Below, one piece after another: positions 13,326-17,700 of a DNA stretch of 64,000 nucleotides (position 1 is its first letter; the number at the start of each line of letters is the position of its first letter). The stretch spans positions 25,558 to 89,557 of the forward strand of contig JAQWSU010000018.1 in assembly GCA_029243025.1 (NCBI GenBank). The letters are read 5' to 3'. A model generated the notes under the pieces. That model was given only the letters and a program-made list of their open reading frames with translations. It was not told where the DNA came from and searched no databases. A program made the position numbers and the translations under genes. The stretch comes from Pirellulaceae bacterium (GTDB lineage: Bacteria; Planctomycetota; Planctomycetia; Pirellulales; Pirellulaceae).

Positions 13326-13826
13326 TCACTCCTTACTCCGACGCCGCTTCAGCGCGTCGACAATTGCGTTGATTAGCGGCACCAAGCTGGCGAGCCCCGA
13401 AAAACCACTTTGCACACCAGAAGAGAGCGCAGCAACACGGCTTTGTAGATCCTGAAATTCCGCACCAACTTGAGCGACCTTGTCTTTCATCTTATTCGCA
13501 TCGGCCGTGAAATCATTGATCACTAACTCCCGAATCTCCCTCGCCATTTCTTCCTCGCGACCTGGTCGCAGTCGCATTGCGACGACGACCAGTACAACAG
13601 CGAGTAAGGCGTTTACGCCAGCGATGATAAAGGCTGAATTCGCATTACTGACGTACTCAGCAAGCAACTCATAGGCACCCACATTGAGCATGACAATCGT
13701 CAATAAAACCAATCCCACGGCCACTGCAAACAGCTTGGCCTGAGTGGCAATGCGTTGAGCATGAATCCGTGCCAACGTCGATTCGGCACGGGCAAGCATT
13801 TTGAGTCTCGTGATCGTTTCGTCCAT
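13326..13826 (-). CDS. Two-TM membrane protein, tentatively YqjE-like (phage-holin-family/DUF1469-like)
   Basis: 166 aa with an amphipathic N-terminus, two hydrophobic helices (LFAVAVGLVLLTIVMLNVGAY; AFIIAGVNALLAVVLVVVAM) and a charged C-terminus. It sits immediately downstream of a DUF883-like tail-anchored gene, as in E. coli yqjD-yqjE. The family assignment is tentative. Confidence 0.45.
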   Translation of the reverse strand: MDETITRLKMLARAESTLARIHAQRIATQAKLFAVAVGLVLLTIVMLNVGAYELLAEYVSNANSAFIIAGVNALLAVVLVVVAMRLRPGREEEMAREIRELVINDFTADANKMKDKVAQVGAEFQDLQSRVAALSSGVQSGFSGLASLVPLINAIVDALKRRRSKE

Positions 13827-13836
13827 TATCTATTCC

Positions 13837-14130
13837 TCAACGCAAGTAGCGACCGAAGATGATACCTATCGTAAACACCGTGATGCACGTGATCGTTGGT
13901 AAGTCACGCATCTCATGCTCGACCAACTGCATCAACTCTTCGAACTGATGCTTAATGACCGAATCATTTCCCGACGTAGGAGTCGTTGAGTCGGGAGCTG
14001 GATCCACGGCGTCAACCGTTGGCTCGTCCGCATCGGTTCCTCGCGATTCTGCTGCATCGCATCGGGCGGTGAGTTCAGCAACCTCCGCACGCAGACGTTC
14101 CAGCTCTTGTTCCATGCTGACTTTGCCCAT
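13837..14130 (-). CDS. Tail-anchored coiled-coil protein, DUF883 (ElaB/YqjD)-like
   Basis: MGKVSMEQELERLRAEVAELTARCDAAE... ends in a single C-terminal TM segment, LPTITCITVFTIGIIFGRYLR. GGGAGAG lies upstream of the ATG at 14130. The track ORF extends to 14313. Confidence 0.5.
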   Translation of the reverse strand: MGKVSMEQELERLRAEVAELTARCDAAESRGTDADEPTVDAVDPAPDSTTPTSGNDSVIKHQFEELMQLVEHEMRDLPTITCITVFTIGIIFGRYLR

Positions 14131-14332
14131 TTGATTACTCTCCCTAAAACCGGACGTGGGCGATCTCACCCTCGAAACTGCCAGAATCGTACACGACGAT
14201 GAATCGGTTCGGCTGTACAAAGCATCAACTTCACCAAGACGATTTTCAATTCCGTTTGACAAAGCCGTTACGAATTCATCGCCCGTCTCGGAGACGCCGG
14301 CATCCCAAGGCATACTCCCTACAGAGAGAATA

Positions 14333-14379
14333 GCCTAAAAGAAAAGCTCTTCCTTGCCGTCTGGCTAAGGAAGAGCTTT
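14333..14379 (-). terminator. Rho-independent terminator downstream of the CC-repeat gene
   Basis: Perfect 13-bp inverted repeat, aaagctcttcctt (14343-14355) and aaggaagagcttt (14367-14379), with an 11-nt loop. On the minus strand it is followed by a T-rich run (cttttctttt). Confidence 0.75.
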
Positions 14380-14410: not shown

Positions 14411-14710
14411 TTAGTGCTCTGAGCCTGCTTCCGTATCGCAGCAGGACCATGGCTGACAACATTCGCCAGCGTCACAGCAGTCGAGCCCAGCGTCACAACA
14501 CTCGAGCCCAGCGTCACAGCAGTCGAGCCCCGCGTCACAACAGTCCGAGCCTAGTGCTTCTGAACCGCAGCAAGCTCCTCCCACATCACAACAGGCAAGA
14601 TTCCGCTCGCAGCAGTTATCACCGCTCGTATCAATTGCAGGGGAAGTGCCGATTGCCGCCACCGCAAGTCCGGCCCCGAACAGCAAAACCAAAGTCATCT
14701 TTGTCAACAT
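14411..14710 (-). CDS. Small secreted cysteine-rich protein built of CC-dipeptide repeats (CC-x5-CC periodicity)
   Basis: GGAGA RBS 6 nt upstream of the ATG at 14710. Signal peptide MLTKMTLVLLFGAGLAVAAIGTSPA. Mature part: ...DNCCERNLACCDVGGACCGSEALGSDCCDAGLDCCDAGLECCDAGLDCCDAGECCQPWSCCDTEAGSEH, with ten CC pairs. A terminator follows the gene. Confidence 0.7.
   Translation of the reverse strand: MLTKMTLVLLFGAGLAVAAIGTSPAIDTSGDNCCERNLACCDVGGACCGSEALGSDCCDAGLDCCDAGLECCDAGLDCCDAGECCQPWSCCDTEAGSEH
14469..14552. repeat. Four tandem 21-bp units encoding the CCDAGL(D/E) heptad
   Basis: gcgtcacagcagtcgagccca / gcgtcacaacactcgagccca / gcgtcacagcagtcgagcccc / gcgtcacaacagtccgagcct, head to tail at 14469, 14490, 14511 and 14532. 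Confidence 0.9.
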
Positions 14711-14811
14711 AATCTGTCTCCAGTTCGTTATCTCAGCCACTCAGCGCAAGCCTTCCACGCGAGTGCCAAATGATAAATTGAAACGCAAAAGAAGTAGACC
14801 GTGTGAAGAAT

Positions 14812-15171
14812 CTAAAGTCGCCACACGCACTGGAGAATGCGAACTGCTGGTCCGGCGTCGACTAATTGGTCGGCAGCCACTGAATTCCAACTGTGTTCTA
14901 CGGGAAGAACAAGAGGCTCAATGACCGACCAGCCCGATGGCTCGTCAACTGTCAACTCGCCAGCATGAGGTCGGAAAGGGACGTCGTCTTTACAACAACA
15001 ATCGAAGGGAATAGCGGGTGCCGATTCGGGTTGCAAAGCCTTGCTTTGGCAACACCCTTTTTCGCCGGAATCACTCACCATTCGCGCGGGGAGCTCACAA
15101 CAGCCGAAAGCTCGAAATGCAATGGCGACGGCGACCGTTAAACCGAATATCTGTGCTCGCGGATTAGACAT
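14812..15171 (-). CDS. Secreted cysteine-rich hypothetical protein (CC/CCC motifs)
   Basis: MSNPRAQIFGLTVAVAIAFRAFGCCELPARMVSDSGEKGCCQSKALQPESAPAIPFDCCCKDD... has a signal-like N-terminus. An alternative GTG start at 15240 lies 15 nt after the upstream stop. Confidence 0.5.
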   Translation of the reverse strand: MSNPRAQIFGLTVAVAIAFRAFGCCELPARMVSDSGEKGCCQSKALQPESAPAIPFDCCCKDDVPFRPHAGELTVDEPSGWSVIEPLVLPVEHSWNSVAADQLVDAGPAVRILQCVWRL

Positions 15172-15255
15172 GCAGCCATTATACGCAATGTCCACGTCGG
15201 GGGCAGCATTCCGAAACTTATGCTGCGACTCTTGCTTCACTCGCTGGGCCCTATC

Positions 15256-17700
15256 TCAGCGAGACAACAACGAAATCAGGTCTCGCAATTCCTGGACAGA
15301 ATATTGTTGGTGGATGCCAGCAGGCATAATCGACTGAGTGTCCAGCTTTCGATGCGCGATCATCTCGCGAGAAACGCTAATTTGCCGCCCATCAGTGGTC
15401 AAGAACTTCTCCTCCTCTTTTGAGACCCCCAATGAAAGGGCTGTAAACACTCGCCCGTCAACCGTCTCAATTAGCCAGGGCACGTATCGCGGACCAATTT
15501 CCTGACTTGGGTGCAGGATCGATTGAACCAAGCGTGAACGGTCGACCCGTTTTCCGATCGAAGTCAGGTCCGGGCCGAGATCCGCACCGCGACCGTCATA
15601 ACGATGGCAGTTTGCACACCTGGTCGAAGAGTGACCAAAGAAAACTCGCCAGCCTCTTTCGGCATCTCCTGGCAGCTTCGGATCTAGCAATTGTGATTCA
15701 ACGGCTGCGACCGACAACTTTGCATTCTCTGGCGCTTGTGAGCTATGAGAGAGCACTCGCGAGGCTTCTTGCCTCAACGCCTTGACGGGCGACTTCGCAA
15801 GCCGCTCAAGGCCTCTTTTCGCCGCGAGCTCCTCTGGGTTGATGCCGGTTAATACGATCGCCTGGAAGGGTGCCGAAAGACGACGATCACCGATCACCGC
15901 CCAACGTGCGGGATCGACAGCTGATTTTTGGCTAATGGCGAGTGTGCGGGCCGCCTCCATCCGAACTTTTTGATCTAGCTGATCGTTTTGTATCAGCCGT
16001 TGCAACAACTCACCGGTTAAGGACTCATGTTCTGGCGGTAATGTTTTGAGCGCCATCGCTTGTAGGTTAGGTCGAGATTCCTCTCGTAAACTTTCCAACA
16101 AAGTCTGTTCCCCGACGATCACTCCGCTGACAACGGCGCCTTGATCCAGCCAGTCGCGCGCGGCAAGAACTCCACGCAGCAGTTGCACGGGCACGTCACC
16201 CTCTTCCAGGAGTAAGTCGAGTGATGGGCGAAACTGCTTGAGTTGTTCGCCGGCGATCCAACGAACCGCATACAATTGAACGGCTGAGGAGTCATCTTTA
16301 AGTGCCTTTGCAAGTATCGCACCTCGTTGTCGATCCGACAAATCACTGCGTCTCGCTGCCTCCAGGATGGCCAGTCGCTGCCGCGGGTCACTGAGTCCAT
16401 CCAGACTTTCGGGCGTCAAATGCGACGAGTTCTTCAAGCTCATCATGGCAGCATGGTGGAGATAAGGATCTGCCGACGATAGCGCCTCCCAGTCGATCGT
16501 GTCGCTACCCGCCACCCGCGCAGCCTGATCTTCATCGGCACTCAACTTGGTGACGGCTCCAAGCGGGAGAGGCGATTTCCACGTCAGCCGCCAAATTCGT
16601 CCCTGTTGATGGACGTTGTAACTCTTGTCGACCCAGTCGGTAAAATAAAGCGCCCCATCGGGGGCAATCGCCAGATCAACCGGACGAAACATCTGATTTC
16701 CCTGAACCACCACCTCACGATCGGCTGTCACCGACGCACCTTTTGGTTTCAGTCGAAACCGTTCGATCCGATACTCGCCCCAACTCGTGCTGTAAAGCTG
16801 GCCATGCCATAACAAAATACCGGACGGCGCTTCACTCGTTGCGGCCGCCATGGGTAATGTACCCGGCAACTCTCCATCCCAGGCCTGCAGGGGATGTTTT
16901 CCGGATCGCCCGTAACGAAATTGGTATCCGTAATCGCCACCGGGCACGACATGCAATAATCGACAAGGAGGACTCGCATCGGGATCATTGCCAACAGTAA
17001 ATAGTCGCCCCACTGAATCAGTACAGATACTGAACGGATTCCAAAATCCTGTCGCAATCAATTCGATCCCGTGACCATCCAGCCGACAACGGTAGATATT
17101 TCCACCTTCTCCACCGCCGCGCAGAGTTTTCCCATCGGCTCCCACTAACGTGTAACTCTCACCAAGATTCTCACCCAAGCCAAAGTAAAGATTGCCGAGC
17201 TTATCAAAGCAAAGCCCGCAAAGGCCGTTATGTGGATAATCACCCTCGGTATTCAAGGTAGCGATCACTTCTCGACGATCTGCTTTTCCGTCCCCATCTT
17301 GATCCTGAGTTCGAAACACTTGCATGCGAGTGGCGATGTAAATCCACGAATCGGGACCACGCCGCAAACTCATTGTCTTTTGCGTGCCATCCAAAAACGT
17401 ACGAAATCGGTCCGCACGTCCATCGCCGTCCAGATCCTCAACAATCTTGATCCGATCCGATTTCGGCCCAGGATAATCATCGCCGGGGAAATGCGTGTGC
17501 GATTCGATCACCAAGAGTCGCCCCAATTGATCAAAGGTTAGACCAACGGGCGTCACAATATCTGGAGCTTCCGCAAAGAGTTCCAGAGTCAGACGATTGT
17601 CAAGAACCGAGGGTAGAGATGGTGCCTCTTGCCCGACGGTCGGAACGCCGACAGAAACCACCAACGAGCAACAGATCAGAGACGCGAACCGTCCCATCAC
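15256..17700 (-). CDS. PVC-type heme-binding CxxCH protein: membrane-bound dehydrogenase-like beta-propeller, HEAT-like repeats and a C-terminal cytochrome c domain
   Basis: 814 aa. Signal peptide MMGRFASLICCSLVVSVGVPTVGQ. N-terminal propeller (FAEAPDIVTPVGLTFDQLGRLLVIESHTH...DGDGRAD...DGDGKAD). Helical repeat middle. C-terminal GHSSTRCANCHRYDGRGADLGPDLTSIG heme c site, typical of the Pirellula/Verrucomicrobium heme-binding domain family. Confidence 0.9.
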   Translation of the reverse strand: MMGRFASLICCSLVVSVGVPTVGQEAPSLPSVLDNRLTLELFAEAPDIVTPVGLTFDQLGRLLVIESHTHFPGDDYPGPKSDRIKIVEDLDGDGRADRFRTFLDGTQKTMSLRRGPDSWIYIATRMQVFRTQDQDGDGKADRREVIATLNTEGDYPHNGLCGLCFDKLGNLYFGLGENLGESYTLVGADGKTLRGGGEGGNIYRCRLDGHGIELIATGFWNPFSICTDSVGRLFTVGNDPDASPPCRLLHVVPGGDYGYQFRYGRSGKHPLQAWDGELPGTLPMAAATSEAPSGILLWHGQLYSTSWGEYRIERFRLKPKGASVTADREVVVQGNQMFRPVDLAIAPDGALYFTDWVDKSYNVHQQGRIWRLTWKSPLPLGAVTKLSADEDQAARVAGSDTIDWEALSSADPYLHHAAMMSLKNSSHLTPESLDGLSDPRQRLAILEAARRSDLSDRQRGAILAKALKDDSSAVQLYAVRWIAGEQLKQFRPSLDLLLEEGDVPVQLLRGVLAARDWLDQGAVVSGVIVGEQTLLESLREESRPNLQAMALKTLPPEHESLTGELLQRLIQNDQLDQKVRMEAARTLAISQKSAVDPARWAVIGDRRLSAPFQAIVLTGINPEELAAKRGLERLAKSPVKALRQEASRVLSHSSQAPENAKLSVAAVESQLLDPKLPGDAERGWRVFFGHSSTRCANCHRYDGRGADLGPDLTSIGKRVDRSRLVQSILHPSQEIGPRYVPWLIETVDGRVFTALSLGVSKEEEKFLTTDGRQISVSREMIAHRKLDTQSIMPAGIHQQYSVQELRDLISLLSR

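What the first reader, a model, noticed from the sequence alone, without database searches (positions are those of the whole stretch)
14411..14710. Secreted mini-protein built from CC dipeptides at heptad spacing, encoded by 21-bp tandem repeats
Seen: after a clear signal peptide, the roughly 74-residue mature chain contains ten Cys-Cys pairs. They are mostly spaced CC-x5-CC. Four consecutive CCDAGL(D/E) heptads are encoded by four head-to-tail 21-bp DNA units (14469-14552). The remaining residues are mainly Asp, Glu, Gly and Ala. The gene has its own RBS and a strong terminator.

Established: vicinal cysteine-rich, acidic, low-complexity polypeptides are typical of metal-sequestering proteins (metallothionein-like). 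I know of no described periplasmic CC-heptad family.

Inference: a metal (Cu/Cd/Zn/Hg or Fe-S) buffering or redox-active envelope protein. The DNA repeat could allow copy-number variation.
Basis: partly seen in the sequence, partly recalled or inferred. Interest (0 to 1): 0.6.

Follow-up and report, generated by a model that had tools for sequence, protein, structure and literature searches.

The report
Exported cysteine-pair protein, likely copper sponge
This is a real gene for a small exported protein made almost entirely of adjacent cysteine pairs; it belongs to an undescribed planctomycete family that always follows a second small cysteine-motif gene and often sits beside copper pumps, so it probably traps copper-like metals outside the cytoplasm.

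Summary
The gene is on the minus strand (14411-14710, 99 aa). It has nine Cys-Cys pairs, not ten, and three full plus one truncated CCDAGL(D/E) units from a 21-bp tandem array. It has an N-terminal export helix, a GGAG ribosome-binding site and a strong terminator.

It is not an orphan. An 85-aa ortholog sits in a syntenic marine locus (dN/dS 0.22). A profile finds relatives in 21 of 151 genomes of the same family and in few genomes elsewhere in the phylum. Members carry 5-19 CC pairs, 75% of them spaced exactly 7 residues apart. Only the cysteines are conserved, and net charge runs from -16 to +11.

No Pfam, NCBIfam or solved-structure family matches, and sources call them hypothetical.

The gene always follows a second undescribed gene (here 14812-15171). 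That gene encodes a membrane-anchored Cys-motif protein that usually ends in CVWRC.

In other genomes this pair lies next to Cu-type P1B ATPases, CusA-type pumps, a multicopper oxidase, a Csp1 copper store and heavy-metal MerR regulators.

Best reading (about 0.55): an exported metallothionein-like sponge for Cu(I) or a similar soft metal. No metal binding or expression was measured.

The parts
14411..14710 (-). CDS of the CC-heptad protein (99 aa; ATG 14708-14710, TAA 14411-14413). It has nine Cys-Cys pairs.
   Evidence: An 85-aa ortholog lies in a syntenic locus, with dN/dS 0.22 and dS 0.78. Family members are shown.
14642..14710 (-). N-terminal export signal (MLTKMTLVLLFGAGLAVAAIGTS). It is Sec-type, or possibly an uncleaved anchor.
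   Evidence: Direct reading and hydropathy. The same M-x-T-K + hydrophobic core is conserved across the family. The cleavage site was not predicted by any program.
14462..14542 (-). In-frame 21-bp tandem units encoding CCDAGLD, CCDAGLE, CCDAGLD and a truncated CCDAGE.
   Evidence: TRF gives 14466-14551, period 21, 4.0 copies, 89% matches. The in-frame units are shown. The ortholog lacks exactly two units (14 aa) here.
14718..14721 (-). GGAG Shine-Dalgarno-like element, 7 nt before the ATG.
   Evidence: direct reading.
14337..14379 (-). Intrinsic terminator: a 13+3-bp hairpin followed by UUUUCUUUU, 32 nt after the stop codon.
   Evidence: (-29.5 kcal/mol, z = -3.56).
14812..15171 (-). Partner gene (119 aa from ATG 15171; the longest ORF runs from GTG 15240). 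It has an N-terminal membrane helix ending in GCC, then CC and CCC motifs, and the C-terminus ILQCVWRL (CVWRC in most relatives).
   Evidence: The partner profile hits one copy per genome in 36 of 401 genomes of the same family. Wherever the flank is available it lies directly upstream of a Cys-rich exported gene on the same strand. AF2 is confident only for helix 4-22.
15178..15184 (-). GTATAAT, a -10-like element 6 nt before the partner's ATG. It is a possible promoter of a near-leaderless two-gene transcript.
   Evidence: The element is conserved in the three genomes of this genus. In other genera it takes the form AAC-N16/17-CGTA. This is an inference; no transcript data exist.

Best explanation
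The gene encodes a Sec-exported, metallothionein-like protein. It works as a high-capacity thiolate buffer for a soft metal, most likely Cu(I), in the periplasm. It is the second gene of a two-gene unit.

The first gene encodes a small protein held in the cytoplasmic membrane by one N-terminal helix. That protein exposes conserved CC, CCC and C-x3-C motifs to the periplasm.

Proposed course (inferred, not shown):
- The pair is transcribed together from its own promoter and ends at the terminator after the CC gene.
- Both products are exported unfolded and metal-free.
- Cu(I) that reaches the periplasm, for example pumped out by a CopA-type ATPase, is caught by the membrane-anchored partner. 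The partner passes it to the CC-repeat chain.
- The chain is disordered on its own and wraps the metal in thiolate clusters, using neighbouring CC-x5-CC units (four thiolates each).
- Capacity scales with the number of CC pairs. That number changes easily by slippage or duplication of the 21-bp units.

Shown: the gene is real, conserved and under purifying selection; only the cysteines are conserved; the partner linkage; the link to copper-handling genes in other genomes.

Inferred: export, metal binding, the metal's identity, the relay role of the partner, and co-transcription.
For: (1) Real gene.
- An 85-aa ortholog (62-72% identity) lies in a fully syntenic marine-metagenome locus.
- dN/dS is 0.22 at dS 0.78.

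(2) Family.
- phmmer over 1.8 billion representatives gave about 18 true relatives.
- The profile hits 21 of 151 genomes of the same family, 7 of 401 genomes across the phylum, and a second family of the same class.
- The invariant columns are the start Met and cysteines only.
- Of 238 CC-CC spacings, 75% are exactly 7. There is no lone Cys in 18 of 25 proteins.
- Composition is C 24%, A 18%, with almost no aromatics or His, as in metallothioneins.

(3) No autonomous fold. AF2 pLDDT is 52.6 for the CC protein and 47.1 for the partner.

(4) Partner linkage.
- The partner is single-copy in 36 of 401 genomes (20 of 126 genera).
- In all 14 genomes hit by both profiles in the 151-genome samples, the two hits are adjacent on the same strand, partner upstream; the further partner loci fetched later mostly show the same.
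- The gene downstream of the partner is always an exported metal-binding-type protein: the CC-heptad type, a CGC-repeat type, a CCC/CxC type, or in one genus a YHS/TRASH protein.

(5) Copper context.
- P1B ATPases with YHS and HMBD domains lie in the same gene cluster as the pair, from directly adjacent to about 4 kb away, in five independent loci (L027, L030, L045, L080, L081). For the two full-length ones checked (L045, L080) the CPC, YN(x)4P and M(x)2SS motifs are present and TIGR01511 scores above its cut-off; L030 is cut off and shows CPC only, and L027 and L081 hold only part of the gene.
- A CusA/CzcA RND pump with its adaptor lies directly upstream in L056 (787 bits against a 701 cut-off).
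- RND and YHS genes lie in L036, L045 and L070, and a CDF transporter in L037.
- A Csp1-family copper store lies in L081.
- A multicopper oxidase, RND/OEP and HMA genes surround a short family member in L086.
- A heavy-metal MerR regulator is divergent from the pair in L080.
- Such genes lie within 8 kb in 8 of about 25 genera. In the window's own genome only 3.2% of positions are that close to one. Binomial p is about 7e-7, but the test was framed post hoc.

(6) Repeat number varies: 9, 7 and 10 pairs within the genus, 5-19 in the family.
Against: - Nothing was measured: no metal binding, no expression, no localisation.
- The window's own locus, and most loci, have no metal gene nearby.
- Free thiols are not expected to persist in an oxidising periplasm, so the cysteines may be disulfide-bonded.
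- The MerR regulator in L080 has three Cys, as in sensors of divalent metals. Its textbook MerR-type promoter (TTGACC-N20-TATGAT with a dyad) points away from the pair.
- The enrichment test used queries chosen after seeing the data, and a background from one genome.
- The window's partner has lost the last Cys of the C-terminal motif (CVWRL).
Confidence: 0.55

Rival explanations
1. Disulfide-ladder structural protein. After export the CC pairs oxidise. Each Cys of a pair bonds to the preceding or following pair, as in granulin, or bonds to other envelope proteins, as in keratin-associated proteins. The result would be a rigid rod or a cross-linker of the protein-rich planctomycete envelope.
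For: The protein is exported to an oxidising compartment, judging by its signal sequence. The only solved-structure matches to the family profile are granulins (best E = 0.037), because of the CC-x5-8-CC pattern. Gly is the commonest residue in the middle of the x5 linker, which fits turns. The genome holds other Cys-rich exported proteins. Own knowledge: planctomycete envelopes are reported to be rich in cystine.
Against: The granulin match is not significant, and no Pfam granulin or keratin model hits any of the 16 members. No residue other than Cys is conserved, and repeat number ranges from 5 to 19. AF2 sees no fold. This reading does not explain the repeated adjacency to Cu ATPases, CusA, a multicopper oxidase, Csp1 and YHS proteins. 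It also does not explain why a YHS protein replaces the CC protein in one genus.
Confidence: 0.17
2. The same sponge architecture, but for a divalent thiophilic metal (Hg(II), Cd(II) or Zn(II)) rather than Cu(I). Vicinal Cys pairs would act as in the mercury-handling proteins MerT, MerC, MerF and MerA.
For: The MerR-family regulator next to the pair in L080 scores best against Hg-MerR and ZntR models (141.7 and 137.9 bits, just below their cut-offs). It has three Cys at the positions used by sensors of divalent ions. A thioredoxin-like protein with a faint MerC hit lies beside it. A CDF transporter lies upstream in L037. Own knowledge: vicinal CC pairs are typical of Mer transport proteins.
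Against: The adjacent P-type ATPases that could be checked carry the Cu(I)/Ag(I) signature motifs and score highest as copper ATPases. Csp1 and the multicopper oxidase are copper-specific. No merA, merP or merT gene was seen in any locus.
Confidence: 0.12
3. A periplasmic thiol/disulfide or sulfane-sulfur buffer. The many vicinal dithiols would cycle between reduced, disulfide and persulfide states. This would absorb oxidative or sulfide stress rather than bind metal.
For: Rhodanese and a rhodanese-fused pyridine-nucleotide disulfide reductase lie in the L081 cluster, and a thioredoxin-like protein in L080. An ECF-type promoter motif, typical of envelope-stress regulons, lies upstream of the partner in 11 of 20 loci.
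Against: These redox genes occur in single loci only, and there they lie next to CopA. No dedicated reductase or oxidase is conserved with the pair.
Confidence: 0.08
4. A precursor of a modified peptide (bufferin-like RiPP). The signal peptide would export a core whose cysteines have been enzymatically converted into metal-chelating heterocycles.
For: Bufferin precursors are small, Cys-bearing, carry Sec signal peptides and protect against copper (PMC11626156, PMC12452194).
Against: The window's genome has no MNIO (PF05114) gene at all, although the control genome was detected. No modifying enzyme is conserved beside the pair in about 45 loci. No NCBIfam precursor model hits.
Confidence: 0.03
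5. A spurious ORF created by a 21-bp DNA repeat.
For: The sequence is low-complexity and repetitive. An antisense ORF of similar length exists on the plus strand.
Against: The CC frame, signal peptide and partner gene are conserved across about 25 genera and two families. dN/dS is 0.22. The gene has its own RBS and terminator.
Confidence: 0.01

Closest known systems
Metallothioneins, especially those rich in CC/CCC motifs with modular repeats (ciliate Cd/Cu-MTs, vertebrate alpha-domain CCxCC; own knowledge)
   Same: About 24% Cys. The remainder is mostly Ala, Lys, Glu, Gly and Ser, with almost no aromatics or His. No fold is predicted without metal. The architecture is modular and repeat-expanding, and only Cys is conserved.
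   Different: The protein is exported by an N-terminal signal sequence rather than cytosolic. Cys occurs exclusively as vicinal pairs on a strict 7-residue register. It is genetically tied to a membrane-anchored partner gene. No Pfam metallothionein model matches.
Csp1 copper storage proteins (PF03860 / TIGR04401), exported Cys-lined four-helix bundles
   Same: A Cys-rich protein exported to the periplasm that stores many Cu(I) ions on thiolates. A Csp1-family gene lies in the same cluster as the pair in L081.
   Different: Csp1 is a folded helical bundle and is Tat-exported (own knowledge). This protein has no RR motif and no predicted helices, carries Gly/Pro-rich linkers, and gets no Csp hit.
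Bufferins (MNIO-modified, Sec-exported copper-chelating RiPPs; PMC11626156, PMC12452194)
   Same: A small Cys-bearing product with a Sec signal peptide that acts in the periplasm against copper stress.
   Different: Bufferins need an MNIO enzyme and a DUF2063 partner, which are absent here. They have few Cys, not 10-38 in pairs.
PcoE / SilE periplasmic metal 'sponges' (own knowledge)
   Same: Small, disordered, periplasmic, high-capacity Cu/Ag binders encoded in metal-resistance clusters.
   Different: They bind through His and Met. This family has essentially no His or Met and uses Cys.
Granulin modules (PDB 2jyt, 2jye, 6cku)
   Same: CC pairs spaced by 5-8 residues. They are the best, though non-significant, solved-structure match.
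   Different: Granulins have a fixed 12-Cys module with conserved non-Cys residues and a defined disulfide-stacked fold. Here repeat number is free, there is no other conservation, and no confident model was obtained.
Vicinal-Cys mercury-handling proteins MerT/MerC/MerF (own knowledge)
   Same: The partner carries a CC pair at the end of its single membrane helix, as in MerT TM1. Vicinal thiolates are used for soft-metal hand-over.
   Different: There is no sequence similarity and one helix instead of two to four. No mer genes are nearby, except for a faint MerC-like neighbour in one locus.

Membership tests
Metallothionein (functional class) | Small, Cys-rich (15-30%), with few or no aromatic or His residues and Cys in C-C, C-x-C or C-x-x-C motifs | tested here: met
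   24% Cys, all in CC pairs. Aromatics and His are near 0% across 25 members.
Metallothionein (functional class) | Binds d10 metal ions in metal-thiolate clusters | not testable with these tools
   Needs purified protein and ICP-MS or ESI-MS. Only genomic association with copper genes is available.
Metallothionein sequence families in Pfam | Match to a curated metallothionein model | tested here: not met
   No Pfam family at E <= 0.1 for any of the 16 members, and none in NCBIfam.
Bufferin / MNIO-dependent RiPP | MNIO (DUF692, PF05114) enzyme gene next to the precursor | tested here: not met
   No PF05114 match anywhere in the window's genome, while the control genome was detected. None was seen in the loci examined.
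Bufferin / MNIO-dependent RiPP | Sec-type signal peptide on a small Cys-bearing precursor | tested here: inconclusive
   A signal-like N-terminus is read directly and conserved, but no signal-peptide predictor was available.
Csp copper storage protein (PF03860/TIGR04401) | Four-helix bundle with Cys lining the core, and a match to the family model | tested here: not met
   No hit. The AF2 model has one short helix, pLDDT 52.6.
Granulin | 12-Cys module with four central CC pairs and a significant sequence match | tested here: not met
   The best PDB profile hit, granulin-5, has E = 0.037, and there is no Pfam granulin hit.
The undescribed CC-heptad + CVWRC-partner module (defined here and in earlier scan notes) | An exported protein with at least 5 CC pairs mostly 7 residues apart, encoded directly downstream of a small gene with an N-terminal helix, CC and CCC motifs and a C-terminal C-x-W-x-C | tested here: met
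   The window has both genes, 101 nt apart on the same strand. The one deviation is that the partner ends in CVWRL instead of CVWRC.

The most novel reading that the evidence does not exclude
This is the first exported (periplasmic) metallothionein system. It would be a self-contained two-gene unit, often driven by an ECF-type promoter. A new kind of single-helix, Cys-motif membrane protein would relay Cu(I), coming from CopA or from outside, to a disordered CC-heptad chain. The chain's metal capacity would be tuned over evolutionary time by slippage of 21-bp repeats.
Probability: 0.4. Interest if true: 0.75.

Novelty: new variant of a known kind. Interest (0 to 1): 0.6.

Why it matters
Bacterial metallothioneins are rare and cytosolic. 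Known periplasmic copper buffers use His/Met (CusF, PcoE/SilE), a folded Cys-lined bundle (Csp1) or enzymatically modified peptides (bufferins).

A Sec-exported, unmodified, all-vicinal-cysteine polymer with its own membrane partner would be a fourth solution. It would raise the question of how thiolates are kept functional in an oxidising compartment. It would also give two unnamed gene families a testable role in Planctomycetia, a group whose envelope biology and metal ecology are poorly known.

The strict CC-x5 register and freely variable repeat number could also make it a simple scaffold for metal-capture studies.

Tried and rejected
- Pfam and NCBIfam scans of the protein, of 16 family members and of 11 partners gave nothing.
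- The PDB profile search gave only non-significant granulin and anaphylatoxin matches.
- AF2 on both proteins with family alignments gave low-confidence models (pLDDT 52.6 and 47.1). I therefore ran no fold search.
- Six literature searches found no description of the family. One further search was rejected for syntax.
- The bufferin/RiPP idea was rejected because the genome has no MNIO gene.
- The PVC-type haem-binding gene upstream (15256-17700) is syntenic only within the genus and is not part of the unit.
- The MerR-type promoter in L080 faces the merR side, not the pair, so it cannot be used as proof of metal induction of the pair.
- A sigma-70 consensus scan found no promoter for the unit in the window.
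- The ECF-like AAC-N16/17-CGTA motif does not match in the window itself.

Full report
**What is in the sequence**

The ORF lies on the minus strand, 14411-14710 (ATG 14708-14710, TAA 14411-14413), and encodes 99 residues.

- The N-terminus is MLTK followed by a 17-residue hydrophobic core and TSPA. It has the n/h/c layout of a Sec signal and no twin-arginine motif.
- No signal-peptide program was available. A Pro after the likeliest cleavage site leaves an uncleaved anchor possible.
- The remaining ~76 residues contain 18 Cys, all in nine CC pairs (not ten). The spacings are 7, 7, 10, 7, 7, 7, 6, 6.
- Three complete heptads (CCDAGLD, CCDAGLE, CCDAGLD) and a truncated fourth (CCDAGE) are encoded by near-identical 21-bp units. 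Tandem Repeats Finder reports period 21, 4.0 copies, 14466-14551.
- GGAG lies 7 nt before the ATG.
- A hairpin of 13+3 bp followed by UUUUCUUUU lies at 14337-14379: -29.5 kcal/mol, z = -3.6.
- The gene is the densest CC-pair ORF among 119,526 six-frame ORFs of at least 40 aa in its 8.35-Mb, 52% G+C genome.

**It is a real, conserved gene**

- An 85-aa protein (62-72% identical) is encoded in marine (TARA) metagenome contigs. The locus is gene-for-gene syntenic with the window.
- The codon-level comparison gives dS 0.78, dN 0.17 and dN/dS 0.22.
- The ortholog lacks exactly two heptads, giving 7 CC pairs. A genome of the same genus has 10.

**It belongs to an undescribed family**

- phmmer against 1.8 billion representative proteins returned about 18 true relatives among 24 hits.
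- All have the same build: M-x-T-K, a hydrophobic core, then CCxxxLACCxxGxACC-x7/8-CCxxGxxCC and so on. Apart from the start Met, the invariant columns are cysteines only.
- In 25 representative members there are 5-19 CC pairs. Of 238 CC-CC spacings, 75% are exactly 7, and 18 of 25 proteins have no lone Cys.
- Composition is C 24%, A 18%, E 8%, K 8% and G 7%, with aromatics and His near zero. Net charge of the mature part runs from -16 (this gene) to +11. Acidity is therefore a peculiarity of this genus, not of the family.
- Several members have their own, different internal tandem repeats: ECCEAKA, CCNEAKA, and a triplicated PTCCMKRAYCC module.
- Whole-genome six-frame searches find the family in 21 of 151 genomes (19 of 126 genera) of the window's taxonomic family. 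Across the phylum it is in 7 of 401 genomes, essentially only in this family and one other family of the same class.
- No Pfam or NCBIfam model matches any of 16 members. Where sources give a name, it is 'hypothetical protein'; most members carry none.
- The PDB profile search gives only non-significant granulin matches, best E = 0.037.
- Six literature searches found no description.

**The overlooked partner gene**

- Directly upstream on the same strand lies a 119-aa ORF (14812-15171). It has one N-terminal hydrophobic helix ending in G-C-C, a CC motif about 15 residues later, a CCC motif, and the C-terminus ILQCVWRL.
- The same gene precedes the CC gene in other genera. There it usually has the motifs LALPPGWCC, CCH, CCCxRD and a terminal L(K/Q)CVWRC.
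- A profile of it hits exactly one place per genome in 36 of 401 genomes (20 of 126 genera) of the family.
- In all 14 genomes hit by both profiles in the 151-genome samples, the two hits are adjacent and co-oriented.
- Where the CC profile had missed, the gene downstream of the partner is still an exported Cys-rich protein. It is either a CGC-repeat type or a CCC/CxC type. In one genus it is a secreted protein with two YHS/TRASH-like CxxxGK...CCxxC units.
- The pair also occurs in the second taxonomic family, including one decayed copy.
- The partner has no Pfam or NCBIfam match. AF2 is confident only for the helix at residues 4-22.

**Transcription signals (inference only)**

- In the window, GTATAAT lies 6 nt before the partner's ATG and is conserved in the three genomes of the genus.
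- In other genera, AAC-N16/17-CGTA ends about 6-9 nt before the start. It is present within 90 nt in 11 of 20 loci, against 0.15 expected from shuffles with a maximum of 3.
- This resembles ECF-sigma promoters (own knowledge) and suggests a near-leaderless two-gene transcript. The motif was defined after looking at the data, and it does not match in the window itself.

**Evidence for function**

The neighbourhood beyond the pair is not conserved, but metal genes recur.

- P1B ATPases with YHS and HMBD N-terminal domains lie in the same cluster as the pair, from directly adjacent to about 4 kb downstream, in L027, L030, L045, L080 and L081.
- The two full-length ATPases examined carry CPC, YN(x)4P and M(x)2SS. 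These are the Cu(I)/Ag(I) signature (own knowledge of P1B-1 pumps). Both exceed the TIGR01511 copper-ATPase cut-off.
- A CusA/CzcA-type RND pump with its adaptor lies directly upstream in L056.
- RND and YHS-repeat genes lie in L036, L045 and L070, and a CDF transporter in L037.
- L081 also has a Csp1-family copper storage gene.
- A short family member in L086 sits among a multicopper oxidase, RND/OEP genes and an HMA protein.
- L080 has a divergent heavy-metal MerR-family regulator.
- With the same queries and threshold, only 3.2% of the window's genome lies within 8 kb of such a gene, against 8 of about 25 genera for the pair. Binomial p is about 7e-7. The test is post hoc and uses a single-genome background.

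**Caveats**

- The window's own locus carries no metal gene.
- The L080 MerR has three Cys, like sensors of divalent ions. Its textbook MerR-type promoter faces away from the pair.
- Nothing was measured.

**Most likely mechanism**

The protein is an exported, metallothionein-like thiolate sponge for Cu(I) or a related soft metal. It would be loaded in the periplasm, possibly through the membrane-anchored partner. Its capacity would be set by the number of CC units. Confidence is about 0.55.

Rivals:
- A disulfide-ladder or cross-linking envelope protein (0.17).
- The same sponge for Hg, Cd or Zn (0.12).
- A thiol or persulfide redox buffer (0.08).
- A bufferin-like RiPP precursor (0.03). The genome has no MNIO gene.
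- A spurious ORF (0.01).

**Comparison with known systems**

- The protein works like a metallothionein but meets no sequence-family test. It is exported, and it is tied to a partner gene.
- It is not a Csp, a bufferin, a granulin or a PcoE/SilE-type protein.
- Earlier notes from this scan on other genomes describe the same family and partner, and reach a similar reading. I list them as leads and do not count them as independent support.

**Verdict**

In my judgement this is a new variant of a known kind (a metallothionein-like metal buffer), in a new cellular location and with a new genetic architecture.

Noticed in passing
window 15172-15184 (minus strand); L027, L031, L063, L067, L071, L080, L081, L085 upstream of the partner gene: A CGTA/GTATAAT -10-like element lies only 6-9 nt before the partner's start codon. 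In 11 of 20 loci it is preceded by AAC at 16-17 nt, which is an ECF-sigma-like promoter. This suggests a near-leaderless transcript.
   Followed up: partly
L080:5855-5894 (MAG Planctomycetes bacterium, GCA_016191165.1): A textbook MerR-type promoter, TTGACC-N20-TATGAT, has the perfect dyad ACCCCGTA/TACGGGGT in its spacer. It faces the merR / thioredoxin-MerC-like side of the divergent region, not the partner-CC-copA side.
   Followed up: partly
L054:6410-7172 (genome G493, second taxonomic family): A decaying copy of the pair. The partner is intact, but the downstream protein has most CC pairs reduced to single Cys and ends early.
   Followed up: no
L067-L069 (genus g3), directly downstream of the partner: In this genus the CC protein is replaced by a 144-aa secreted protein with two CPLSGK...FFCCANCPKAF units. 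These are YHS/TRASH-like by eye, but NCBIfam gives no hit.
   Followed up: partly
genome contig C60 around 451834 (+), outside the window; also C6, C15 and two further places on C60: The same genome has other exported Cys-rich low-complexity proteins, including GCDxGCD/CGC repeats. Some form N-terminal regions of larger, possibly outer-membrane proteins.
   Followed up: no
window 13837-14313 (minus strand): The 158-aa ORF downstream of the terminator corresponds to two separately called genes (59 and 97 aa) in the syntenic marine locus. A holin-X-like membrane protein follows at 13326-13826. Either the start assignment or a fusion differs between the two genomes.
   Followed up: no
L045:4547-6994 (P1B ATPase of genome G142): The N-terminal region of this copper ATPase itself carries two CC pairs (SSCCGGG...SSCCSGH) between its YHS and HMBD domains.
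   Followed up: no
L081 and L090, directly upstream of the partner: A VIT1-family (iron/manganese transporter) gene immediately precedes the partner in two metagenomic loci.
   Followed up: no
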